From positions 841,403 through 905,402 of the forward strand of contig CBDANK010000002.1 of NCBI GenBank assembly GCA_965197565.1: a stretch of DNA of 64,000 nucleotides, in the 5' to 3' direction. Shown here one piece after another: positions 9,675 to 63,159 of this stretch (positions are counted from its first letter, which is position 1; each line of letters opens with the position of its first letter). The DNA comes from Dehalococcoidia bacterium. GTDB lineage: Bacteria; Chloroflexota; Dehalococcoidia; Lucifugimonadales; UBA3495. The notes below the pieces were generated by a model. It saw only the letters and a program-made list of their open reading frames with translations. It did no database searches and was not told where the DNA came from. A program made the position numbers and the translations under genes.

Positions 9675-10409
9675 ATGGCAAATCAGCACGGTAGCTTTCA
9701 AGCCCGCTCTCGGATGCGTGTTATGGACAGCATGCTTCCGGTTTTACACCAGATTCATGTGATAAGGGCGATCACTCGCCACCACGAAATCGACAAGGAA
9801 GGTCTCTATGGCCAGGCTCTGGCAGACTTTACTCATGGGGACAACGCAGAAGCCTTCTCTGCTCTTGGCGAATTCGTCCATAGGGTGACGTCAGGAACAC
9901 TGCTAGATGACAAAGGCGACGCACCTGTAGGAACGTTGTTGAGCATAGATCTACGTGACGTCGAAGAACATACCTGCTCAAATATCCGTGAATTCAACCA
10001 TAGGTACCTGAACAATAAGGGCATATCCGCTCTGCTGACCCTTCTCGCAATTGATGCGGCAGGCCTGGACCTGGCAGCCATCGACGTCTTGAGGGGAGGA
10101 GAAGCTCTCAGCGCTGCCTACGGACCCCGGAAGACTCGACGACACAAGAATCTGGGTAAACAAATGCAAAGTTGGCTCAAGGACTTAAAGTCAGCGGACG
10201 AACCTGCGACGATGGAAGCGGCAGACCGCTATGTCGAGTATCGCTATCTTGACCACGGTAATTTGCCTAACTACAAGAAGCGCAAAGAACTCGAAGGCGA
10301 TACACCTAGCGAGCGGTATTACAGAGAATGGTTTCGAGACTTCAACAAGGCACTCGGGTTTTGGCAGCCGGGCCCCGGGCGACCAAGTAACACGCCTGAC
10401 CATCACTGA
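9675..10409 (+). CDS. hypothetical protein (244 aa), no recognisable domain
   Basis: This is a long ORF in a visibly lower-GC patch inside the IS graveyard. I recognise no family motif. Confidence 0.45.
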   Translation: MANQHGSFQARSRMRVMDSMLPVLHQIHVIRAITRHHEIDKEGLYGQALADFTHGDNAEAFSALGEFVHRVTSGTLLDDKGDAPVGTLLSIDLRDVEEHTCSNIREFNHRYLNNKGISALLTLLAIDAAGLDLAAIDVLRGGEALSAAYGPRKTRRHKNLGKQMQSWLKDLKSADEPATMEAADRYVEYRYLDHGNLPNYKKRKELEGDTPSERYYREWFRDFNKALGFWQPGPGRPSNTPDHH

Positions 10410-16161: not shown

Positions 16162-17289
16162 ATGGCTGATTACAGAGTTATATCCTCGGACAACCACGTA
16201 TTCGAGCCGGTGGACCTGTGGACCAGCAGGACCGAGCCGAAATTCAGAGACCGGATGCCCCACATCGAGCACTTGGAAGACGGTGATTGGTGGTACTGCG
16301 ACGGCCACAAAGTCACCGGGACCAGTGCCGGCACCCAGGTTGGAGTGAGGTTTGAGGACCAATCGAAGCTGGAACGCACTAGGCCGGTGGAAGAGATCCG
16401 ACCGGGGGGCTGGATTCCTGAAGAACATGTGAAAGACATGGACGCCGACGGGATAGACGCCGGCATCATCTTCCCCAGCGTCGGTCTGGACCTCTATCAA
16501 AATATCCCGGACAGCGATCTGTTGACGGAAATATTTAGAATCTACAACGACTGGCTGGCCGAGTTCTGCCGGGCCTTCCCCGACCGGCTCAAAGGCATTG
16601 CCATGATCAACATTGACGAGGTGAAGCCCGGTGTGAAGGAGTTGGAACGCTGCGCCAAAATGGGGCTAATAGGGGGAATGATTACGGAATACCCCACACC
16701 GGACCGGCCGTACAGCTTGCCGGAATACGATCTCCTCTGGGCGGCGGCTCAAGACCTACAAATGCCCTTGGCGCTGCACTTCACCACCAACCGGCCGGGA
16801 CCCGGTCAAGAGGCCGTCGGCGGCATGGATAACCTTAGCCCCGCTTTCATGTGCAACATGGACCACTGGGTGCGGATGTCGCTGGCTCACATCATCTATG
16901 GCGGGGTGTTCCAACGCTTCCCCGAACTTCAAATAGGCGCGGTGGAGAATGAGCTGGCTTGGGCCCCCCACTTCCTGGAGAGGTTGGACTACACCTATAC
17001 CCAGCGGGTGCCCAGGTCGGAATGGTGGGACCGGTTTACCGGAGACAAGCTACCCAGCGAGTACTTTCACAGCAACGTCTTCCTCGGCTTCCAGGAGGAC
17101 GCCCTGGGCATTGAGTTGCGCGACCGCATAGGAGTGGACAATCTAATGTGGGGCTCGGACTATCCTCACACCGAGTCCACCTTCCCCAGAAGCCGGCAGA
17201 TACTGGAGGAGATCCTGGTGAACTGCACCGAGGAGGAAAAAGCCAAGATCGCTGGCGGCAACGCCGCCAGAGTATATCGTATGGATTAG
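16162..17289 (+). CDS. amidohydrolase-2 family protein (ACMSD/LigW-like metal-dependent hydrolase or decarboxylase)
   Basis: SSDNHVFEP, DADGIDAGIIFPS, the ...ALHF... region and WGSDYPHTES are typical of PF04909. Confidence 0.8.
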   Translation: MADYRVISSDNHVFEPVDLWTSRTEPKFRDRMPHIEHLEDGDWWYCDGHKVTGTSAGTQVGVRFEDQSKLERTRPVEEIRPGGWIPEEHVKDMDADGIDAGIIFPSVGLDLYQNIPDSDLLTEIFRIYNDWLAEFCRAFPDRLKGIAMINIDEVKPGVKELERCAKMGLIGGMITEYPTPDRPYSLPEYDLLWAAAQDLQMPLALHFTTNRPGPGQEAVGGMDNLSPAFMCNMDHWVRMSLAHIIYGGVFQRFPELQIGAVENELAWAPHFLERLDYTYTQRVPRSEWWDRFTGDKLPSEYFHSNVFLGFQEDALGIELRDRIGVDNLMWGSDYPHTESTFPRSRQILEEILVNCTEEEKAKIAGGNAARVYRMD

Positions 17290-45955: not shown

Positions 45956-46512
45956 CTATTCGAGGTAGTCGTCACCCGACGTTGGACGACTCTCACAATC
46001 TGCCTTGAAAGGTCCGTATGTCTCCTCGAATCCTGCTAGGTCAAACTTTGCCTCATACCAACCCTTGTCACCCTCAACAGCAAATTCCAGGTGGTCATGT
46101 TCAAGGAGTCCGTCAATGAACTTCTGGTCTAACTGCTTACGTCTCGGGGAAACGTTATTCCCTTCCGTACTCCCATCCCATGTTTCAAAAACCGTGCTTT
46201 CGGAGTCCCACTTCAGTCGAACACTCAGGTCATAGAGTACAGATACGTGGGAACCCCAAGCAATATCGGAGCTAATGTATGGCCTACAGGGGGAGAATTG
46301 AAACAGGTTACAGTCAACCGGGCGTCCCCTTCGCCCTCTCCAGTCTCGTGGGTCTCGTAGGCCCACAAACTGATGGAAAGCCCGTCGGCGTTGTCGGATT
46401 GAACCCAGTCTCCCACAGCCGGCTCTTTCACCGCAATTGGTTGGGACGCTTCGGACCCGCAGGCCACCGTAATTAGCAACAATACAAAACTGGCTGCCAC
46501 TAAAGCGCGCAT
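45956..46512 (-). pseudogene. lipoprotein of unknown function, frameshifted
   Basis: The N-terminal part (46225-46512) has the lipobox LITVACG. The C-terminal part (45956-~46290) is in another frame, and the switch lies near a C5/G5 run at ~46285-46295. Confidence 0.5.
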
Positions 46513-46585: not shown

Positions 46586-46660
<75 letters not shown>

Positions 46661-46744
46661 TTTCAGTGTTTCTTCCTTAGCTAAGTCGGCAAAATGCCGG
46701 CATTCGCGCTGGTAAACAGGAAGCTTAGCCACAATTTTGGGCGC

Positions 46745-46820
46745 TGGTGCCGAGGGACAGAATCGAACTGTCGACACCGGCATTTTCAGTGCCGTGCTCT
46801 ACCAACTGAGCTACCTCGGC
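46745..46820 (-). tRNA. tRNA-Phe (anticodon GAA), CCA encoded
   Basis: The hand-folded cloverleaf is GCCGAGG-TA-GCTC-AGTTGGTA-GAGC-A-CGGCA-CTGAAAA-TGCCG-GTGTC-GACAG-TTCGATT-CTGTC-CCTCGGC-A-CCA. Confidence 0.9.
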
Positions 46821-55632: not shown

Positions 55633-58376
55633 CTACCCCAACTGCTCCAGGATGTCGTCCAAGCGTTGCTTGCGTTCACTAAGCGACCTCAGGCGCTCTT
55701 CTTCATTTTCAACCACTTCTGGCTTGGCCTTGGCTCGAAAGTTTGGGTTGGACACTAGGGCCGACACCCGGTCCAGGTTTCTCATGCAGTCGTCCCGGTC
55801 TTTGCGGAGCCGTTGTGTCTCCGCTTCCAAGTCTACCACGCCTTCCAGGGGCAACCGGACTACCAGGGGACTCACCACCAAGGCGATGCCTTTAGCAGAG
55901 CTATCCCGCGGGGAATCTTTGGCAAGGATACGCAGCGGCTCCACCCGGGAAAGTGTCCGTATGACCTCCGCTTCTTCCTCGATGGCGCGTTGCTGGCCGT
56001 TGGCCTCGACCAGGGCCTCCAAGTGTTGATTGGCCGGGATGCGAAGCTGGGCCCGCGCATTGCGCACCGCCCGAATAGCCCGCATAACCAGGGAAATCTC
56101 CTCTTCGGCCCGGCTGTCTCTGCGGACGCCGTCGGCCTGCGGGTAGGGGGCGACCATTATGGACTCCGGCAACCCCCCTTCCTGGGGTAGGACTGTTTGA
56201 AGGTTCTGCCAGATTTCTTCGGTAATGAAGGGCATGAAAGGATGCAGCAACCGCAGCGTCCGCTCCAGCACATGGGCCAAGACGGGCAATGGAGAGGGAG
56301 TGGAACCCGACCGTAATCGTATCTTGGCCATTTCGATGTACCAATCGCAGTACTCATCCCAGATGAAGTCGTATAGCTTCTGCTGGGCCTCTCCTAGCTC
56401 GAAGTTGTGCAGCGAATCATTCACCTCGTTGGTGAGCCGGTCCAACCGGCTCAATATCCAGCGGTCTTCCCGGTGTTCCACCGCGCCCAAGTGGTGCCAA
56501 CCGTCCAAGCCGGATTTGCCTTTCAAGCTGGTGTGTACGAAGCGGGCTGCGTTCCACACCTTGTTGGCGAAGTTGCGGGCCGCTTCCAGTCTGCTCTCGG
56601 TAAACCTCAGGTCGCTGCCCGGAGCAGTGCCGGTGGTCAGGGCGAAACGGAGGGCGTCGGTGCCGTAGCGGTCCACCAACTCCAAGGGGTCCATGGTATT
56701 GCCCCTGGTCTTGCTCATCTTGGCGCCCGTGCCGTCCCGGATCATCCCGTGGAGGAAGACGGTGCGGAAAGGCGCTTGGCCGGTGTTCTCGATGCCCAGC
56801 ATGATCATGCGGGCGACCCAGAAAAACAGGATGTCGTAGCCTGTCTCCAACACCGAGGTGGGGTAGAAATAGCGCAAGTCTTCGGTGTCCTGCGGCCAGC
56901 CCAGGGTTGAGTGGGGCCATAAGCCGGAGCTAAACCAGGTGTCCAACACATCCGGGTCTTGATTGAGCCGCACAGACTGGCAGGAAGCGCAACCAGTTGG
57001 GTCTTCCACCGATACGGTCAAGTGGCCGCAATCCTCGCAGTACCACACAGGAATCCGGTGTCCCCACCACAGTTGCCGGCTGATACACCAGTCCCGGATA
57101 TTCTCCAGCCAGTTGAGGTAGACTCGGGTGAACCGCTCCGGCACCACTCGGATCTCGCCCCCGGCGACGGCGGCGTGGGCCCGCCCGGCGATGCTGTCCG
57201 GTTGCTCGTGGCTGCCCAGATTCACGAACCACTGGAGGCTGACCAAGGGTTCGACCACCGAGGCGCATCTTTGACAGTGGCCCACCGAGTGGCGGTATTC
57301 CTCCACCTTTTCCAAAAGCCCCAGGGCTTCCAATTCGGAAGCGACTTCCCGCCTGACCTGGAAGCGGTCTACGCCAGCGTACTTGCCGGCGGCGCCGTTC
57401 ATATTTCCATCCAAGCCGATGACCGTGAGAATCTCCAGTTGGTGCCGCTGTCCTATCTCGAAGTCGACTTGGTCGTGGCCCGGCGTCACCTTTAGCGCGC
57501 CGGAGCCGAATTCCTGGCTGATGGCCTGATCACCGACTATCGGTATGCTGCGGCCCATTATGGGAAGCGCGGCCCGCCGCCCCAGTAGCCGCTGATAACG
57601 AGGGTCTTCCGGATGCACCGCCACTCCGGTGTCGCCCAACATAGTCTCGGGCCGGACCGTAGCGACCGTAATGTAACCCGGCTCCAAGGTTGGGTTTCAT
57701 TTGTTTGCGTGACATCGGAATTGACGGGCAGGGACTCTTCTTCGAGGGGGTAACGTATAAAGTACAGGGAGCCTTCCAGTTCTTGATAGTCCACTTCCAA
57801 ATCGGAGAGAGCCGTGGAGCAGCGGGGGCACCAGTTGATTATCCGCTCGTGGCGGTAAATAAGCCCCTTGTTGTACAGGTTTACGAAAGTGGTCCTGACC
57901 GCGCGGCTGGGACCAGGGTCCAAGGTGAACCTATGCCGGTCCCAATCGGCCGACACGCCCAGACGCCGTGATTGCTCGTGGATGATGCCGCCGTACTTTC
58001 GGACGTGTTCCCAGACCAGCCCTTCGAACTCCTCCCGGCCCAACTGGTGGCGGTCCCTTCCTTGAGCGGCCAGTTGCTGTTCCACGGCCCATTGGGTGGC
58101 GATGCCGGCGTGGTCGGTGCCGGGGAGCCACAGGGTCGGATCCCCCAACATGCGATGCCAGCGCACCAAAGCGTCTTCAGTGGCCTTCTCCAAAGCGTGG
58201 CCCAAGTGCAACTCGCCGGTGACGTTGGGCGGAGGCATGATAACGGTGAAGGGTTGCTTGCTTGGGTCCACATGGGGCGCGAAATAACCCTTGGCCAGCC
58301 AATTCCGGTAAAGTCGCTGCTCCACCGTGGCGGCGTTATAAGTGCTGGGAATTTCGGCGGAGGGCCTGGAGGTCAT
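55633..58376 (-). CDS. valS: valine--tRNA ligase, split by a 1-nt frameshift at ~57689-57696
   Basis: The N-terminal part (57558-58376) has PPPNVTGELHLGHA (HIGH). The C-terminal part (55633-57696) has TVRPETMLGD, KMSKTRGN (KMSKS) and a coiled-coil tail. The frames change within ACCCAACC. Confidence 0.9.
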
Positions 58377-58636
58377 CTTGGAGATTTTCTCCCCTCTTTT
58401 TGGATTTCGGAGGCTCATTTTGCGAGGGACTAGCAAATAATGGCTGTCAGCAAATATATCACCTAGGCTACCTAATAGTCTAATGACCGAAATTGGCCTA
58501 GCGAGTATATTACGAAGTCATATACAAATTTGGCTATGATTGGGCTAACCGATTTGTATGGGACATAAGACCATTGACAGCATAAGAGCACGTGTTCTAA
58601 CTTGTAAATTGAGTTAATAGGCCTTATGGAGGTCTT

Positions 58637-59368
58637 TTGGCACTCAAATCAGCTATTGAATGGACAGACGCAACCTGGAATCCGGTAACTGGCTGTACTA
58701 AGGTGAGCCCAGGGTGCGCCCACTGTTATGCCGAAACGATCACATTGCGGTTCAAGAGAGGTGGCCCCTTTTTGCCGGGTAAGACCACCATCAAACGACA
58801 CCCGGAAAGACTGCGGCTGCCGCTGACCTGGAAAGCTCCACGTCATATCTTCGTGAACAGCATGAGCGACCTATTCCACGAAGAAGTCCCTTTGGCATAT
58901 ATCAGGCAAGTGTTTGACGTGATGGAGCAGGCCCCGCGGCATATTTTTCAAGTTCTGACGAAGCGTCATGAGCGATTACGTTCACTAGCCAATGAGCTTG
59001 AATGGTCACCGAATATATGGATAGGTGTATCCGTGGAAAACCAATATTGGGCGGACCGACGCATACCTGCGCTGGTTCATGTCCCGGCTAAAGTGCGGTT
59101 CTTGTCAGTTGAACCAATGCTAAAGCCGATCGACTTACAGCCGTACCTACGAGACATTCAGTGGGTCGTAGTAGGGGGTGAGAGTGGTGTCAAAGCCAGG
59201 TCCCTCAGGGTTGAGTGGGTCCGGCGAATTCGAGACGATTGTGCAGCAGCCAATGTACCGTTCTTTTTTAAGCAATGGGGGGGCAGAACCAGTAAAGCCG
59301 GCGGACGTTGTTTAGATGGCGTCATTTGGGATGACATGCCTGAAATCTCGACCGGTAGGATACGGTGA
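58637..59368 (+). CDS. DUF5131 (phage Gp37/Gp68) family three-Cys-motif protein
   Basis: The TTG start follows the RBS GGAGG. WNPVTGCTKVSPGCAHCYA (C-x6-C-x2-C), SVEPML, VVGGESG and FFFKQWGG are present. GC is visibly lower than in the flanks. Confidence 0.85.
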   Translation: MALKSAIEWTDATWNPVTGCTKVSPGCAHCYAETITLRFKRGGPFLPGKTTIKRHPERLRLPLTWKAPRHIFVNSMSDLFHEEVPLAYIRQVFDVMEQAPRHIFQVLTKRHERLRSLANELEWSPNIWIGVSVENQYWADRRIPALVHVPAKVRFLSVEPMLKPIDLQPYLRDIQWVVVGGESGVKARSLRVEWVRRIRDDCAAANVPFFFKQWGGRTSKAGGRCLDGVIWDDMPEISTGRIR

Positions 59369-59377
59369 TACTTCCAA

Positions 59378-60457
59378 ATGGTCCCTGGATTCTTCGATAA
59401 CTTAAGAGATCACTCAGAAGTAAAACTTCGAATTCTTGGGAGCTTTCTTGCCCCGTGGGCGGCAAAACTCGGTTCGTTGGCCAGACGGGGTAACGGGATT
59501 ATTTGGTATGTCGATGGATTTGCCGGTGCAGGGAGATATGGTGATGGTAGGGATGGCTCACCTTTGCTTGGTCTACGGGAAGCACGACGACTCCTGAGTG
59601 TAAATAGAGATTACGCATTGGCATCTTTCTTCGTAGAAGCTAATCGGAATAATTGGCGGTCGCTCGAAGGAATAATTAGGCCGTTTAAGGCTGAAGGACT
59701 TCAGGTTCGCAATGAGCGCGGTGAATTTTCTGATTTAGTTGGATTGATTGATCAAACTACGAGTGGCTCACCTATCCTGTTATTTGTCGATCCGTTCGGA
59801 ATCAAGCCACTGGTATATACTCGTTTTAGACCACTTCTTACTCGGCGATCACCAGTAGACCTTATTCTAACTTTTCAGCACACAGCCGTACCCAGACTGG
59901 CTAAAGATCATCCTCACCTTGTCTCGCAAGCAATAGGTAGTGATGCTTGGTTAAGAGGATGGGACATGCTACAAGGCTCCGCGAACCAAACAGAGCACGT
60001 ACTTCGATTCTTTGCTAACAACCTTCGTCGCGATGGCAGGTTCTATAACGTGGTCAGCTATCCTATACGAGAACGGATCGATAAAGCTCCAAGGTACCAT
60101 TTGATGTTTGCCAGCAGGCACTACGATGCCTTTGAGCTGTGGAATGATCAGGTAGTTCAAGAGGACACACTGTTGTCCCAAAAACAATATCAGGGCCTCG
60201 CTACCCAATCTAGTTTCTTGCCGCAGTTTGATCAAGAAGTAGCCGGCGTTAACCTGTTGAATGGCATAAGGACGTTTGGTGCCTCCCACGCGCAGTTCAC
60301 CCGCAGAGACTTGGTAATGCATTTTGTCAGCAATTGGTGGGGCGCATACCATACAGGGGACATTAAGCGGGCAGTGGCATCACTGCTAGCAACTGGAGAT
60401 CTAAAAAGGGAACCCGGCCGAAGACGAGGAATTGACTTCGACTTTATGCATTTTTAA
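59378..60457 (+). CDS. tcmP: three-Cys-motif partner protein TcmP-like
   Basis: It lies 9 bp downstream of the DUF5131 gene. HSEVKLRILGSFLAPW, WYVDGFAGAGRY and LLFVDPFG match my recollection of TIGR04474. Confidence 0.7.
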   Translation: MVPGFFDNLRDHSEVKLRILGSFLAPWAAKLGSLARRGNGIIWYVDGFAGAGRYGDGRDGSPLLGLREARRLLSVNRDYALASFFVEANRNNWRSLEGIIRPFKAEGLQVRNERGEFSDLVGLIDQTTSGSPILLFVDPFGIKPLVYTRFRPLLTRRSPVDLILTFQHTAVPRLAKDHPHLVSQAIGSDAWLRGWDMLQGSANQTEHVLRFFANNLRRDGRFYNVVSYPIRERIDKAPRYHLMFASRHYDAFELWNDQVVQEDTLLSQKQYQGLATQSSFLPQFDQEVAGVNLLNGIRTFGASHAQFTRRDLVMHFVSNWWGAYHTGDIKRAVASLLATGDLKREPGRRRGIDFDFMHF

Positions 60458-60475
60458 GTAAAGGCGGCTACGCTA

Positions 60476-61216
60476 TTAGCCCTGGGCCCTGGTATGGCCT
60501 CTTGAGGTCTGGGTAGCTTGCTCGAGAAGACGCAGCTTTCTGATGCCCTTTTTGGTGTCGCTAGCTACCCGGGCCGGGTCCCATATTTTGAGGCGCCGCT
60601 TGTGGAGCCAGTAAGTGAATCCCTTTATGTCGGATAGGGAGAGGTGGCGGCGCTTGGGTATGTGGGCTTGTTGGCGGTACTCCTCCAGCAACTCCGACCG
60701 AGTGGCGCTGTACAGGTGAAGGAAAGCCTCCTCGACCAAGTCCTCGGTATCGGAATAGCCGCGAGCGGTATACCGCTTGCGCACCTCCTCCTCCGCCGAC
60801 AACTGCAAAGCCTCCTCGACCACCACTCCATACCAGAAATTCAGGTAAGCCCGGTATTTATTGACACCCAAGAGATCGCGGAAGGTCTCCGGTTCCACCG
60901 CTTCCGGGAGCTGCCCCCGGAAAAGCAACGACTCCTTCTCTTCGACTGGAATGATGCCGTCCAACTCGCTGCAGAGCCGCTCCGCTAGGACCAACCAATC
61001 GAAGGCCTCGCCTTGGATCAAATACCGGTAGGTCCGGCCCAGCAATTCTTCCTGGGGTCGGGTCCAGAGTCCAACGGCCTCCAATAGAGCCCGATGCCAA
61101 GGAACGCCGGACTGGGCCGCGGCCTTCAGGTGATGCAGTGCTTCCGGTGTCTGCTGGACCAGACCGGTCGACGGCTCGGTCCCGGAGAAAGGAGAGTAGC
61201 CGGGCTCGTTTTCCAT
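60476..61216 (-). CDS. hypothetical protein (246 aa), apparently co-transcribed with polX
   Basis: It has host-like GC and starts 4 bp after the polX stop. No motif was recognised. Confidence 0.55.
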   Translation of the reverse strand: MENEPGYSPFSGTEPSTGLVQQTPEALHHLKAAAQSGVPWHRALLEAVGLWTRPQEELLGRTYRYLIQGEAFDWLVLAERLCSELDGIIPVEEKESLLFRGQLPEAVEPETFRDLLGVNKYRAYLNFWYGVVVEEALQLSAEEEVRKRYTARGYSDTEDLVEEAFLHLYSATRSELLEEYRQQAHIPKRRHLSLSDIKGFTYWLHKRRLKIWDPARVASDTKKGIRKLRLLEQATQTSRGHTRAQG

Positions 61217-61219
61217 GAA

Positions 61220-62995
61220 CTACCAGGCCCCTGCTTGAGCGGCTTGGAACACTTGGGCGCGGTCCGGCTTTGGAGTGCGGATATAGGCCAGGAATCGGGC
61301 CAGAGGCAGTGCGTTTAGAATATGCTTTGGCTCACACCAAGCCCGCCGGGCCACCGCCACGCCAAATCGCCTCTGGCTCAGGTCGGCGTAATGGTGAGAG
61401 TCGGTGCTCACCACCAGAGGCACCCCCAACTCCCGCGCCCGGTAGGCGTGAGTGTCTTTCAGGTCCAGCCGTTCCGGCGAAGAGTTGATCTCCAGGGCCG
61501 TTCCGGTGGCCCGCGCTTCTTGGAGCACTGCCTCCAAGTCGAACTCTGTTGGCTGCCGTCTCCCCAGAAGCCGGGTGGAAAGGTGACCGATAATTGTAAC
61601 CGCTGGATGCCGCATGGCTTTTATAATGCGCTGGGTCATGGTGCGACTATCCTGTCCCATGGCCGAATGCACCGACGCCACCACCACGTCCAGCTTTTCC
61701 AGCAGTTCGTCCGGATAATCCAGGGTGCCGTCGGACCGTATGTCAACTTCCGAGCCGCACAATATGCTGATGGAGTGCTCCCCTTGCAGGGACCGCAAGA
61801 GACCTATCTGGTCGAGCAGGCGCTGCGGCGACAAGCCGTTGGCTATGCCAAGGCCCGATGAGTGGTCGGTAAGAGCCATGTATTCGTAGCCCTTGGCGGC
61901 TGCCGCCGAAACCATCTTCTCGATGGAGTCGCGGCCGTCGCTCCAGTCGCTATGCAGGTGAAGGTCTCCTCGAAGGTCGGACTCTTCGACCAGCATCGGC
62001 AGGCGGTCTTCCTGGGCTGCTTCCAGCTCCCACATGCCCGCCCGCAACTCCGGCGGAATGTAGGCCAAGCCAAGCCGAGAGTAGAACGCCCTTTCGTCGG
62101 GGTACTGCTCAGCAACACCCGTATCCAGGTTGGTGACGCCGTACTCATTCAGCGACAACCCGATGCGGTTGGCATAGTCTCGCAACCTGATGTTGTGCTG
62201 CTGGCTGCCGGTAAAGTACTGGAGCAGCGCGCCAAAAGACTCCAGACCCCCCAACCGCAGGTCCACTTGAATTCCGGGCTCTACAATCACGCTGGTCTTT
62301 TTGGGGCCGTGGACCAACACCTCGCGGACCACATCCAGGGAAACCAGGGCATCGCCGGCTTGTTCCGGGTGGGTGGATGTGCCCACTAGGTCGATGTCGC
62401 CAATGGTTTCCTCCCAACGCCGCAGGCTTCCAGCGGGGAACAGGGAGCCGATGTGCGGGCACTTATTCCGCAAGTCATGAGCGATCTCCTCGGCCAAGGG
62501 CAACGCTTGGCCGATGGGAGTCCGCGTGTCTTTGGCTTGTGAACTCTGTATGTGGCGAAGAATGTTGTCCGCAGCTTTCTTTCCCATCCGGGGAAGGGCG
62601 GCCATTCTCCCGTCGCTAATTGTTTGTTCCACCTCATCGATGCTGCTGATGCCCAGTTCTTGGCTGATTAGCAAGGCAGTCTTGGGTCCTATACCGGGCA
62701 CCTCCATCAGTGTCAGCACGCCTTGGGGCAATTCCGCCAGTAGCCTCTCGTAGGTAGAAACCCGGCCGGTTTGGAGCAACTCGTGGATCTTGCCGCTAAT
62801 GGCCTTGCCGATGCCGGGTATCCGTTTCAAGTCGGCTCCGTCATCCACCGCTTGGGCCAAAGGAAAGGAAAGTTGTTCAATGGTGCGGGCCGCCCGCTGG
62901 TATGCCCGTATTTTGAACACACTGTCTCCCTTGAGTTCCACGAGAATCGCCAAGTTCTCGAAAAAGCGGGCTATGTCCTCGTTGCTTTGCGTCAT
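61220..62995 (-). CDS. polX: DNA polymerase X family protein with a C-terminal PHP phosphoesterase domain
   Basis: The start is MTQSNEDIARFFENLAILVELKG. HhH motifs (IPGIGKAISGKI, VPGIGPKTA) are present. The PHP domain has GDLHLHSDWSDG, ALTDHS and VVSTDSH. Confidence 0.9.
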   Translation of the reverse strand: MTQSNEDIARFFENLAILVELKGDSVFKIRAYQRAARTIEQLSFPLAQAVDDGADLKRIPGIGKAISGKIHELLQTGRVSTYERLLAELPQGVLTLMEVPGIGPKTALLISQELGISSIDEVEQTISDGRMAALPRMGKKAADNILRHIQSSQAKDTRTPIGQALPLAEEIAHDLRNKCPHIGSLFPAGSLRRWEETIGDIDLVGTSTHPEQAGDALVSLDVVREVLVHGPKKTSVIVEPGIQVDLRLGGLESFGALLQYFTGSQQHNIRLRDYANRIGLSLNEYGVTNLDTGVAEQYPDERAFYSRLGLAYIPPELRAGMWELEAAQEDRLPMLVEESDLRGDLHLHSDWSDGRDSIEKMVSAAAAKGYEYMALTDHSSGLGIANGLSPQRLLDQIGLLRSLQGEHSISILCGSEVDIRSDGTLDYPDELLEKLDVVVASVHSAMGQDSRTMTQRIIKAMRHPAVTIIGHLSTRLLGRRQPTEFDLEAVLQEARATGTALEINSSPERLDLKDTHAYRARELGVPLVVSTDSHHYADLSQRRFGVAVARRAWCEPKHILNALPLARFLAYIRTPKPDRAQVFQAAQAGAW

Positions 62996-63159
62996 ACTGT
63001 GCAGCGTCAAACGTTGACCATTGCTGGCTGGCCTTATTATACTACTCTTCTTGGCGGGGCTCTCCCGCATATTAGCGGCGAAGATGGGAGGTTGGCGATG
63101 GGCGACACGGTATTCTTATCCGTCCGGTCCCCGGCATACTTTCAAGACAGGCGTCAACA

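What the first reader, a model, noticed from the sequence alone, without database searches (positions are those of the whole stretch)
58437..60475. Low-GC two-gene islet DUF5131 (three-Cys, phage Gp37/Gp68) + TcmP partner, inserted between valS and the polX operon: uncharacterised candidate nucleic-acid modification or defence module
Seen: two co-oriented genes lie 9 bp apart. They are visibly AT-richer than the neighbouring housekeeping genes. They sit between the valS 5' region and the convergent 3' end of the next gene, with only 18 bp between the two stops. Gene 1 has the DUF5131 hallmarks WNPVTGCTKVSPGCAHCYA (Cys20-x6-Cys27-x2-Cys30), SVEPML, VVGGESG and FFFKQWGG. Gene 2 has the N-terminal HSEVKLRILGSFLAPW block. 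It also has two motifs reminiscent of methyltransferase-fold enzymes: DGFAGAGRY (glycine-rich loop, aa 46-54) and FVDPFG (DPxG, aa 136-141). Established: NCBI/TIGRFAM names this conserved gene pairing (three-Cys-motif partner protein, TcmP) without assigning a function, and DUF5131 was first defined from phage proteins. Inference: it is a horizontally acquired two-component system acting on DNA or RNA, either a modification or an anti-phage/anti-MGE function. No nuclease, integrase or regulator is visible next to it.
Basis: partly seen in the sequence, partly recalled or inferred. Interest (0 to 1): 0.8.

Follow-up and report, generated by a model that had tools for sequence, protein, structure and literature searches.

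The report
Radical-SAM-like plus methyltransferase-like accessory gene pair
Two adjacent low-GC genes wedged between valS and the polX operon of a Chloroflexota genome are an intact copy of a widespread but uncharacterised mobile gene pair (a radical-SAM-like enzyme plus a methyltransferase-fold partner) that probably modifies DNA, and its function has never been tested.

Summary
DUF5131 lies at 58637-59368 (318 bits, cut-off 28.9). TcmP lies at 59378-60457 (TIGR04474, 126.9 bits, cut-off 53). They are 9 bp apart, and their GC3 is 0.54 and 0.43 against a window mean of 0.69.

The pair is accessory but not recent. Relatives whose flanking proteins are 66-85% identical carry it at the same site. 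Equally close relatives have only 0.3-0.4 kb of spacer there.

New here:
- The TcmP model (pLDDT 93) has a class I SAM-methyltransferase fold, near-invariant DxFAGxG and DPFG motifs, and a C-terminal winged helix.
- The DUF5131 model matches spore photoproduct lyase best, but weakly.
- 71 of 80 genomic TcmP loci and 18 of 18 viral ones have DUF5131 adjacent, in all four gene orders.
- Where DUF5131 is missing, a canonical or photoproduct-lyase-family radical SAM gene replaces it. More than 120 protein clusters fuse TcmP to such a domain.

Elsewhere the neighbours are integrases, restriction-modification genes and prophage immunity modules. PADLOC lists the pair as unvalidated defence candidates PDC-M30/M41.

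The best reading is a two-subunit nucleic-acid, probably DNA, modification enzyme of mobile elements with a possible defence role. The function is untested. This copy is a new member of a known, uncharacterised kind.

The parts
58437..58636 (.). AT-rich spacer (38.5% GC) between divergent valS and DUF5131. It presumably carries both promoters and contains an imperfect inverted repeat at 58517-58564.
   Evidence: The promoter-like hits are no more frequent than in shuffled sequence, so no promoter is assigned.
58637..59368 (+). DUF5131 / phage Gp37-Gp68 family protein, 243 aa. It is a radical-SAM-superfamily-like enzyme.
   Evidence: PF07505 318 bits. PADLOC PDC-M41B 330 bits and PDC-M30B 318 bits. 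PHROG 2045. TIGR04471 radical SAM mobile pair protein A, 71 bits, E 9e-20, below its equivalog cut-off. AF2 model pLDDT 77.6, with the best TM-scores to spore photoproduct lyase.
58694..58726 (+). Codons for the three-Cys motif C20-x6-C27-x2-C30, the predicted [4Fe-4S] ligands.
   Evidence: C20, C27 and C30 are invariant in 44 homologues. CX6CX2C is present in 120 of 120 listed homologues and none has CX3CX2C. This loop has low confidence in the cofactor-free model.
59378..60157 (+). TcmP residues 1-260: an N-terminal helix plus a class I SAM-methyltransferase (Rossmann) domain, with motif I D46-G-F-A-G-x-G52, E87, and motif IV F136-x-D138-P-F-G141.
   Evidence: TIGR04474 126.9 bits. AF2 pLDDT 93.4. 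Foldseek PDB hits are all SAM methyltransferases, with Trm1 on top at E 3e-6. The viral library also returns methyltransferases. The motifs are 97-100% conserved in 91 diverse TcmPs.
60158..60457 (+). TcmP residues 261-359 and the stop codon: a helical linker and a C-terminal winged-helix-like domain. This is the most variable part of the protein.
   Evidence: Secondary structure of the model. The equivalent region of distant TcmPs matches Pfam PF22560, the GMT-like wHTH domain. It has the lowest identity to the window protein of any region in the alignment. The window protein itself does not reach PF22560.

Best explanation
The two genes encode the two subunits of one enzyme that acts on nucleic acid, most likely DNA.

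DUF5131 is a radical-SAM-superfamily protein related to spore photoproduct lyase. It would bind a [4Fe-4S] cluster through C20, C27 and C30 and use SAM to generate a 5'-deoxyadenosyl radical.

TcmP is a class I SAM-methyltransferase-fold protein. Its DPFG catalytic motif is of the kind found in methyltransferases that act on exocyclic amino groups. Its variable C-terminal winged helix would position the complex on its target, and the Rossmann domain would either transfer a methyl group or hold the flipped base.

The module is accessory cargo of prophages, integrative elements and restriction-modification islands. In this Chloroflexota lineage it has lodged between valS and the polX operon and has been kept or lost lineage by lineage. 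Its biological role is probably marking or altering DNA in conflicts between hosts and mobile elements, that is, defence or self-protection.

Shown here: family membership, the folds, the conserved motifs, the obligate pairing and fusion, the accessory distribution and the mobile-element context. Inferred: cluster binding, radical chemistry, the substrate, and the biological role.
For: - Membership.
- TcmP fold and motifs.
- DUF5131 as radical-SAM-like: RadicalSAM.org files DUF5131 as Megacluster-5-2, next to spore photoproduct lyase at 5-3 (PMC9477430). It matches TIGR04471 at E 9e-20. Its highest TM-scores (0.42-0.46, probability 0.94-0.99) are to spore photoproduct lyase, and other radical SAM enzymes are also in the list.
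- Pairing: 71 of 80 genomic TcmP loci have DUF5131 adjacent, in four gene orders (38 co-oriented with DUF5131 first, 24 convergent, 6 co-oriented with TcmP first, 3 divergent). All 18 viral loci have it too.
- Partner swapping: in L017, L018, L019, L025 and L029 the adjacent gene is a Radical_SAM or SPL-family protein instead. L007 joins that cluster.
- Fusion: L064 encodes TcmP fused to an SPL-family domain. The best 120 of its 406 homologues are all proteins of about 650-730 aa, from several phyla; 119 cover 87-94% of the fusion and one 415-aa protein covers 52%. All 120 carry a CX3CX2C motif.
- No third conserved gene: 435 neighbouring proteins fall into 384 clusters.
- Context: integrases, Eco57I/HsdM methylases, Mrr, ResIII and transposases next to the pair. 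Type I restriction-modification genes are adjacent in two phyla. Prophage repressor, recombinase, GmrSD and Mrr genes are neighbours. In Gordonia phages Jablanski and Fairfaxidum the pair lies in the integrase/immunity-repressor region.
- Accessory status at this site.
Against: - No experiment exists for either family and no relative has a solved structure.
- The Foldseek E-values for DUF5131 are weak (0.006 or worse), and Pfam Radical_SAM (PF04055) does not match it.
- The Cys spacing is CX6CX2C, not the canonical CX3CX2C.
- The closest structural matches of TcmP are tRNA/rRNA and small-molecule methyltransferases rather than DNA methyltransferases. No Pfam methyltransferase model matches it.
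- The window protein does not itself reach the wHTH model.
- In this window there is no mobile-element or defence gene beside the pair.
- DUF5131 occurs in 181 phage records, but a tblastn search with the window's TcmP found a partner in only two records of one phage. DUF5131 therefore probably also works without a recognisable TcmP.
- The neighbourhood counts rest on crude ORF calls and include related genomes.
Confidence: 0.5

Rival explanations
1. An RNA-modification pair. TcmP methylates a tRNA or rRNA base, as Trm1 or RlmJ do, and DUF5131 performs a radical step on the same nucleoside, by analogy with radical SAM plus methyltransferase-fold steps in tRNA hypermodification.
For: The top Foldseek hits for TcmP are Trm1, TrmR, an RlmJ-like DUF519 protein and TYW2/Trm5-like proteins. 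The pair sits next to valS and has stayed there in diverged relatives.
Against: It is absent from equally close relatives that keep the same valS-polX neighbourhood. GC stays low. Elsewhere it is embedded in prophages and integrase or restriction-modification neighbourhoods, with no recurrent translation genes. The partner family is closest to a DNA-acting lyase. The C-terminal domain is a winged helix.
Confidence: 0.15
2. A nucleotide or small-molecule enzyme of the viperin type. The radical SAM subunit and the methyltransferase together make a modified nucleotide that poisons phage replication, rather than modifying a polymer.
For: Radical SAM enzymes are used in this way in known anti-phage systems (established knowledge of prokaryotic viperins). 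The pair is a PADLOC defence candidate. Several Foldseek hits for TcmP are small-molecule methyltransferases.
Against: The partner family is nearest to spore photoproduct lyase, not viperin. The winged-helix domain and the DPFG motif suggest a base within a polymer. No nucleotide kinase or transporter recurs nearby.
Confidence: 0.1
3. A DNA-repair module. DUF5131 is a photoproduct-lyase-like repair enzyme that works alongside the neighbouring PolX, with TcmP as an accessory DNA-binding factor.
For: DUF5131 resembles spore photoproduct lyase. It lies next to the polX operon. Phages carry DUF5131 alone.
Against: The polX-246aa-valS arrangement exists without the pair in many relatives. The pair's contexts elsewhere do not contain repair genes. 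The near-invariant methyltransferase motifs of TcmP would be left unexplained.
Confidence: 0.1
4. An inert remnant. The pair is leftover cargo of a long-gone mobile element and has no present function in this genome.
For: TcmP is interrupted in the 98.6%-identical relative L001 by a 1-nt insertion and a 5-nt deletion. It is split in L009 and truncated next to an IS-like ORF pair in L012. There is no mobility gene nearby.
Against: Both ORFs in the window are full length and keep every invariant family residue. DUF5131 is as conserved as valS between relatives. Many of the interruptions are in low-coverage long-read assemblies and may be sequencing errors.
Confidence: 0.1

Closest known systems
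TcmP / three-Cys-motif protein pairing (NCBIfam TIGR04474 with PF07505 DUF5131, 'phage Gp37/Gp68 family')
   Same: Both HMMs score above their curated cut-offs, the genes are adjacent, the three-Cys motif is present, and the protein lengths are typical (243 and 359 aa).
   Different: Nothing differs at the family level. This copy is chromosomal, has no mobile-element genes beside it, and sits at a site shared with diverged relatives.
PADLOC phage-defence candidates PDC-M30 and PDC-M41 (unvalidated two-gene candidates)
   Same: The B component matches very strongly (330 and 318 bits). The A component matches over most of its length, and the layout is the same two genes.
   Different: The A-component scores are low (41.7 and 31.5 bits), so the TcmP here is a divergent subtype. 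Candidate status is not evidence of defence.
Spore photoproduct lyase and the radical SAM superfamily
   Same: Both have a partial TIM-barrel fold and a cysteine triad near the N-terminus. In other genomes SPL-family proteins replace DUF5131 as the TcmP partner, or are fused to TcmP.
   Different: The motif is CX6CX2C rather than CX3CX2C. There is no PF04055 or PF20903 match. The protein is much shorter (243 against about 340 aa). Cluster binding and SAM cleavage have not been shown.
Amino-group methyltransferases with a DPxG/DPPY-type motif IV (Trm1, RsmD, RlmJ, N6-adenine DNA methyltransferases)
   Same: TcmP has the Rossmann fold, the DxFAGxG motif I, an acidic residue after strand 2, and the DPFG motif IV. 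From memory, Trm1 also has DPFG.
   Different: There is no sequence-level match to any methyltransferase family. TcmP also has an extra N-terminal helix, an insertion at residues 167-260, and a C-terminal winged helix.
Restriction-modification gene pairs
   Same: Both are two-gene modules with every relative gene orientation, carried by mobile elements and often beside other restriction-modification systems. One partner has a methyltransferase fold.
   Different: There is no nuclease. Here the methyltransferase-like partner is the fast-evolving one and the other partner is highly conserved, which is the reverse of typical type II systems.

Membership tests
DUF5131 (PF07505) | Pfam HMM score at or above the gathering cut-off | tested here: met
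   318 bits against 28.9, covering profile positions 2-243 of 243.
DUF5131 (PF07505) | N-terminal three-Cys motif C-x6-C-x2-C | tested here: met
   C20, C27 and C30 are invariant in 44 homologues and the motif is present in 120 of 120 hits.
TcmP (TIGR04474) | NCBIfam HMM score at or above the curated cut-off | tested here: met
   126.9 bits against 53, covering profile positions 1-258 of 263.
TcmP (TIGR04474) | Encoded next to a three-Cys-motif protein | tested here: met
   It lies 9 bp downstream of DUF5131. The same adjacency is seen in 71 of 80 genomic and 18 of 18 viral loci.
PADLOC PDC-M30 / PDC-M41 | Both components, A and B, match and are adjacent | tested here: inconclusive
   B scores 330 and 318 bits. 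A scores only 41.7 and 31.5 bits. PADLOC's own system rules and thresholds could not be run here.
PADLOC PDC-M30 / PDC-M41 | Protects against phage | not testable with these tools
   These are candidates only. The literature searches found no validation.
Radical SAM superfamily | Match to the Radical_SAM model PF04055 with a canonical CX3CX2C motif | tested here: not met
   There is no PF04055 hit at E <= 0.01. The motif is CX6CX2C.
Radical SAM superfamily | Homology to, or fold of, recognised radical SAM families | tested here: inconclusive
   TIGR04471 matches at E 9e-20 but below its cut-off. Spore photoproduct lyase gives the best TM-scores (0.42-0.46), but Foldseek E-values are 0.016 or worse. 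RadicalSAM.org lists DUF5131 as a subgroup (PMC9477430).
Radical SAM superfamily | [4Fe-4S] binding and reductive cleavage of SAM | not testable with these tools
   This needs anaerobic biochemistry.
Class I SAM-dependent methyltransferases | Rossmann-type methyltransferase fold | tested here: met
   The model has pLDDT 93.4. There are 119 PDB matches at E <= 0.001, and the 50 shown are nearly all annotated SAM methyltransferases. The viral library also returns methyltransferases.
Class I SAM-dependent methyltransferases | SAM-binding motif I and catalytic motif IV conserved | tested here: met
   D46, A49, G50, D138 and P139 are invariant. G52, E87, F140 and G141 are at least 97% conserved in 91 sequences.
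Class I SAM-dependent methyltransferases | Sequence match to a curated methyltransferase family | tested here: not met
   There is no Pfam or NCBIfam methyltransferase hit and no PDB sequence hit even with a profile.
Restriction-modification system | A nuclease partner | tested here: not met
   Neither protein matches a nuclease family or fold.

The most novel reading that the evidence does not exclude
The pair, together with its SPL-partnered and fused relatives, is a new class of DNA-directed immune or self-marking system. A radical SAM subunit and an amino-methyltransferase-like subunit bearing a winged helix would jointly install a previously unknown covalent DNA modification. Alternatively, the radical SAM subunit would damage DNA that lacks the TcmP mark, acting like a restriction-modification system without a nuclease.
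Probability: 0.25. Interest if true: 0.85.

Novelty: new member of a known kind. Interest (0 to 1): 0.45.

Why it matters
TcmP is a very large family, with about 13,000 clusters at 50% identity. DUF5131 returned at least 8,000 database hits. The two are spread across bacteria, archaea and phages, yet I found no study of their function.

The partner swapping and the recurrent fusions found here show that TcmP and a radical SAM enzyme work as one unit. That turns a vague 'DUF plus partner' annotation into a concrete biochemical hypothesis with two SAM-using active sites and one DNA-binding domain.

If the product is a new DNA modification or a new restriction principle, it would matter for phage-host biology and for enzymology. 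The specific copy in this window adds an intact chromosomal example with natural with-and-without relatives. That is useful for comparative detection of a modification in long-read data.

Tried and rejected
- **Literature.** Seven full-text searches (DUF5131, TcmP, PDC-M30/M41, PF07505/Gp37Gp68, 'Gp68 family', TIGR/PF accessions, radical SAM + SPL + phage defense) found only list-type mentions. One mention is that a TcmP gene sits two locus tags from the defence gene hna on pSymA of S. meliloti.
- **Solved structures.** Sequence and profile searches of the PDB found nothing significant for either protein.
- **Insertion scars.** No convincing flanking direct repeats were found. There is no tRNA within 11 kb and no Rfam match. 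Promoter-like and terminator-like hits are at the chance level.
- **Genome scan.** The 91-sequence TcmP alignment was too diverse for the genome scan, so a 36-sequence alignment was used instead.
- **A third conserved component.** None was found.
- **The GGESG loop.** I considered calling the invariant G180-G181-E182 loop the radical SAM 'GGE' motif. I dropped this because it lies near the C-terminus and I could not establish that it is equivalent.
- **The type I R-M adjacency.** I did not treat the six or seven type I methylase neighbours as independent evidence, because most come from one Acidimicrobiia lineage. Only the recurrence in Oscillochloris, with a different partner type, counts as independent.
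- **'GMT'.** I could not find out what 'GMT' stands for in Pfam's 'GMT-like wHTH'.
Full report
**1. What is there**

The region holds two co-oriented ORFs.
- Gene 1 is 58637-59368 (+), 243 aa. It starts at a TTG 6 nt after a GGAGG.
- Gene 2 is 59378-60457 (+), 359 aa, and begins 9 bp after gene 1 ends.
- Upstream lies a 200-bp spacer of 38.5% GC, and beyond it the divergent valS.
- Downstream, 18 bp separate the TcmP stop from the stop of a convergent 246-aa gene (60476-61216). That gene has no Pfam or NCBIfam match and follows polX (61220-63070) in the same orientation.

Gene 1 scores 318 bits on PF07505 (cut-off 28.9). Gene 2 scores 126.9 bits on TIGR04474 (cut-off 53).

GC3 is 0.537 for gene 1 and 0.428 for gene 2. 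The 55 long ORFs of the window average 0.694 (sd 0.077), and TcmP is the lowest of them.

The hits carry organism names from Chloroflexota and Dehalococcoidia.

**2. Is it an insertion?**

It is an insertion, but an old and polymorphic one.

A 98.6%-identical relative (L001) has the same arrangement. So do L002, L004 and L005:
- their flanking proteins are 58-85% identical to the window's;
- their DUF5131 is 70-77% identical;
- their TcmP is 55-59% identical.

In all of them the pair keeps a lower GC3 than its neighbours.

I scanned metagenomes with the 246-aa neighbour and obtained 80 loci. In about 25 loci that extend far enough, the order is polX - 246-aa gene - valS - aroE. The gap is only 294-410 bp and there is no DUF5131 or TcmP.

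On a valS neighbour-joining tree, genomes with the pair (L001, L002, L004, L005) are interspersed with genomes without it (L103, L124, L146). DNA similarity to the empty sites stops at window positions 58376 and 60519.

One marine relative (L110) carries a much more divergent, low-GC TcmP fragment at the same place.

The pair is therefore dispensable cargo at a variable site, not a core gene. The pattern fits either ancient gain with repeated loss, or exchange by recombination through the conserved flanks. I cannot tell which.

Closer TcmP relatives (61-63% identity) sit in unrelated contexts in L009 and L012. One copy (L003) lies between capsid and portal genes. Both facts argue for mobility.

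**3. What the proteins are**

*TcmP.* With a 91-sequence alignment, AlphaFold2 gives a model with pLDDT 93.4 and pTM 0.90. Foldseek finds 119 PDB matches at E <= 0.001. The 50 best, the only ones listed, are nearly all annotated as class I SAM methyltransferases. The top hits are Trm1 (E 3e-6), Rv2258c, TrmR, an RlmJ-like DUF519 protein, and TYW2/Trm5-like proteins. The viral library returns methyltransferases too.

Across the 91 diverse TcmPs:
- D46, A49, G50, D138 and P139 are invariant;
- G52, Y54, E87, F136, F140 and G141 are at least 97% conserved.

These residues form a DxFAGxG SAM-binding motif I, the acidic residue after strand 2, and an FxDPFG motif IV. A motif IV of this kind is typical of methyltransferases that act on exocyclic amino groups of bases. 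This last point rests on established knowledge of the motifs and on my recollection that Trm1 has DPFG. I did not test it here.

The C-terminal 100 residues form a helical linker plus a winged-helix-like domain. In distant TcmPs this region matches Pfam PF22560. It is the least conserved part of the protein.

No curated methyltransferase HMM and no PDB sequence matches TcmP. The fold assignment is therefore new information, not a re-annotation.

*DUF5131.* RadicalSAM.org places the family in the radical SAM superfamily as Megacluster-5-2, beside spore photoproduct lyase at 5-3 (PMC9477430).
- It matches TIGR04471, 'radical SAM mobile pair protein A', at E 9e-20, below that model's equivalog cut-off.
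- The model (pLDDT 77.6, with the Cys loop disordered) has its highest TM-scores, 0.42-0.46, to spore photoproduct lyase. Other radical SAM enzymes are also listed, but all E-values are weak.
- Pfam Radical_SAM does not match, and the motif is CX6CX2C in 120 of 120 homologues.

Membership of the superfamily is therefore likely but not demonstrated here.

**4. Evidence that the two act together**

Among 80 genomic TcmP loci from bacteria and archaea, 71 have DUF5131 adjacent, in four gene orders:

| Gene order | Loci |
|---|---|
| Co-oriented, DUF5131 first | 38 |
| Convergent | 24 |
| Co-oriented, TcmP first | 6 |
| Divergent | 3 |

All 18 viral-contig loci also have the pair. Adjacency that survives changes of orientation indicates a functional link rather than mere co-transcription.

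Of the nine loci without DUF5131:
- Six have a canonical Radical_SAM or SPL-family gene next to TcmP.
- One (L064) encodes a single 737-aa ORF, TcmP plus winged helix fused to an SPL-family domain.
- Two (L006 and L067) are unresolved.

The fusion is recurrent. A search with it returned 406 hits. The best 120 are all proteins of about 650-730 aa, from Planctomycetota, Omnitrophica, Marinimicrobia, Latescibacterota and others. Of these, 119 cover 87-94% of the fusion and one 415-aa protein covers 52%. All 120 carry a CX3CX2C motif and 113 carry motif I.

So TcmP always travels with a radical-SAM-type enzyme. That enzyme may be DUF5131, a separate SPL-like protein, or a fused SPL-like domain. 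This is the strongest argument that the three cysteines of DUF5131 do the job of a radical SAM cluster site, and that the two proteins form one enzyme.

No third gene is conserved. The 435 neighbouring proteins fall into 384 clusters.

DUF5131 is far more conserved than TcmP:
- Between syntenic relatives it is 72-77% identical, against 57-59% for TcmP.
- DUF5131 returned at least 8,000 database hits, the best 120 of them at 65% identity or more.
- TcmP drops below 40% identity after about 45 hits.

This fits a conserved catalytic subunit combined with a diversifying targeting subunit.

**5. Context elsewhere**

The immediate neighbours in the 80 genomes include:
- phage integrases (7);
- Eco57I, N6_Mtase and HsdM methylases (6-7);
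- Mrr, ResIII, rve transposases and a TrwC relaxase.

The type I methylase neighbours come mostly from one Acidimicrobiia lineage. However, the same adjacency recurs in Oscillochloris with an SPL-type partner.

On viral contigs the neighbours are cI-type repressors, M78 peptidases, serine recombinases, Dam-class methylases, GmrSD and Mrr.

In the temperate Gordonia phages Jablanski and Fairfaxidum the pair lies in the integrase/immunity-repressor region. In Fairfaxidum it is directly downstream of the repressor.

PADLOC-DB has HMMs for the pair as candidates PDC-M30 and PDC-M41. The B component matches at 330 and 318 bits, the A component at only 41.7 and 31.5 bits. The two papers that mention PDC-M30 only list it.

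DUF5131 is found in 181 phage records, mostly in Mycobacterium, Gordonia and Burkholderia phages. A tblastn search with the window's TcmP found a match in only two records of one phage, although divergent TcmPs such as Jablanski gene 43 escape that search. DUF5131 therefore probably also works without a recognisable TcmP.

In the present window none of these mobile-element or defence neighbours is present.

**6. Mechanism**

My best reading, at about 0.5 confidence, is a two-subunit enzyme acting on nucleic acid, most likely DNA.
- DUF5131 supplies 5'-deoxyadenosyl-radical chemistry.
- TcmP supplies target binding through its winged helix.
- TcmP's Rossmann domain provides either a methyl transfer or a base-flipping pocket.
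- The module is carried as accessory cargo that marks or alters DNA in host-versus-mobile-element conflicts.

The folds, motifs, pairing, fusion and distribution are shown. Cluster binding, the chemistry, the substrate and the role are inferred.

The rivals are:
- an RNA-modification pair (0.15), favoured by the tRNA-methyltransferase structural matches but contradicted by the patchy, mobile distribution;
- a viperin-like nucleotide-modifying enzyme (0.1);
- a DNA-repair accessory of PolX (0.1), contradicted by the polX-valS synteny existing without the pair;
- an inert remnant (0.1), suggested by interrupted TcmP copies in L001, L009 and L012 but contradicted by the intact, fully conserved copy here.

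**7. Comparison and novelty**

The locus is a bona fide member of the DUF5131/TcmP pairing that NCBIfam already names and that PADLOC already lists as an unvalidated defence candidate. It is a new member of a known, though functionally uncharacterised, kind.

It is not a restriction-modification system in the defined sense, because it has no nuclease. The gene-order plasticity and the company it keeps do resemble one.

- the methyltransferase fold and motifs of TcmP;
- the interchangeability of DUF5131 with SPL-type radical SAM partners;
- the recurrent fusions;
- natural with-and-without relatives at a single chromosomal site.

**8. Verdict**

Interest is 0.45. The family poses a genuine open question with a clear experimental path, but this particular copy is an ordinary member and nothing in the window itself is surprising.

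Noticed in passing
window 55633-58436 (-), frameshift near 57689: valS is split into two overlapping ORFs (57558-58436 and 55633-57687). Compared with the 98.6%-identical relative L001, which has an intact 914-aa valS, the window lacks one T in a short T run at 57689. This is most likely an assembly error in a long-read contig rather than a pseudogene of an essential gene.
   Followed up: partly
L001 10001-11006 (equivalent to window 59486 and 60044-60048): In the near-identical relative, TcmP is broken into 210-aa and 117-aa pieces by a 1-nt insertion in a G run and a 5-nt deletion (TATAA), while DUF5131 stays intact. This is either decay of TcmP or errors at 7x coverage.
   Followed up: partly
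L012 10371-11602, with a second copy at 16261-17196: In a Dehalococcoidia MAG, TcmP ends after about 131 aa, and a two-ORF cassette (99 aa and 311 aa) follows on the opposite strand. The 311-aa ORF recurs with the same first 40 residues 6 kb away. This looks like an insertion sequence that has disrupted TcmP. The ORFs were not scanned against any family library.
   Followed up: no
L003 7678-14193: In another Chloroflexota contig from the same sample as L001, the pair, together with a sigma-70 factor and a zf-HC2 anti-sigma gene, sits between an HK97-type capsid gene and an SPP1-type portal gene. This is a prophage-like or remnant element with an unusual cargo position.
   Followed up: no
L110 2366-2773 (-): A marine relative carries a very divergent TcmP fragment (55 bits, GC 0.49 against 0.57 for the locus) at the same place as the window's islet, after an S1-domain gene. 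This suggests the valS/polX junction is a recurrent landing or exchange site.
   Followed up: partly
window 60476-61216 (-): The 246-aa gene downstream of polX has no Pfam, NCBIfam, PADLOC or PHROG match. It is nevertheless conserved (40-72% identity) in all 80 metagenome loci retrieved with it, and polX lies directly upstream in most of those that extend that far. It is an uncharacterised, lineage-wide companion of PolX.
   Followed up: partly
L002 11088-12182; L110, L112, L126, L136, L137, L142, L146, L150, L153: A protein of about 360 aa is present between the 246-aa gene and valS in some relatives and absent in others, including the window. Pfam shows an S1 domain in the L002 copy; the others are grouped with it only by the similarity of their N-terminal sequences. 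This is a second presence/absence difference at this junction.
   Followed up: no
window 58517-58564: An imperfect inverted repeat (GTCATATACAAAT ... ATTTGTATGGGAC, 22 nt apart), with an overlapping palindrome, lies in the AT-rich spacer upstream of DUF5131. It could be an operator. Its conservation in relatives was not checked.
   Followed up: no
window 9675-10409 (+) and 45956-46366 (-): Two other ORFs have clearly low GC3 (0.555 and 0.518). The second lies about 220 bp from the tRNA-Gly and tRNA-Phe genes at 46586-46820. They may be further small acquired segments.
   Followed up: no
L045 7930-11065; L049 7322-11062; L038 9974-12957: Some genomes carry DUF5131 with two TcmP-like genes in a row (a weaker-scoring paralogue plus a full-scoring one), making a three-gene variant of the module. 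In L049 the longest ORF containing DUF5131 is 447 aa, with about 200 residues upstream of the DUF5131 domain, but the true start codon was not determined.
   Followed up: no
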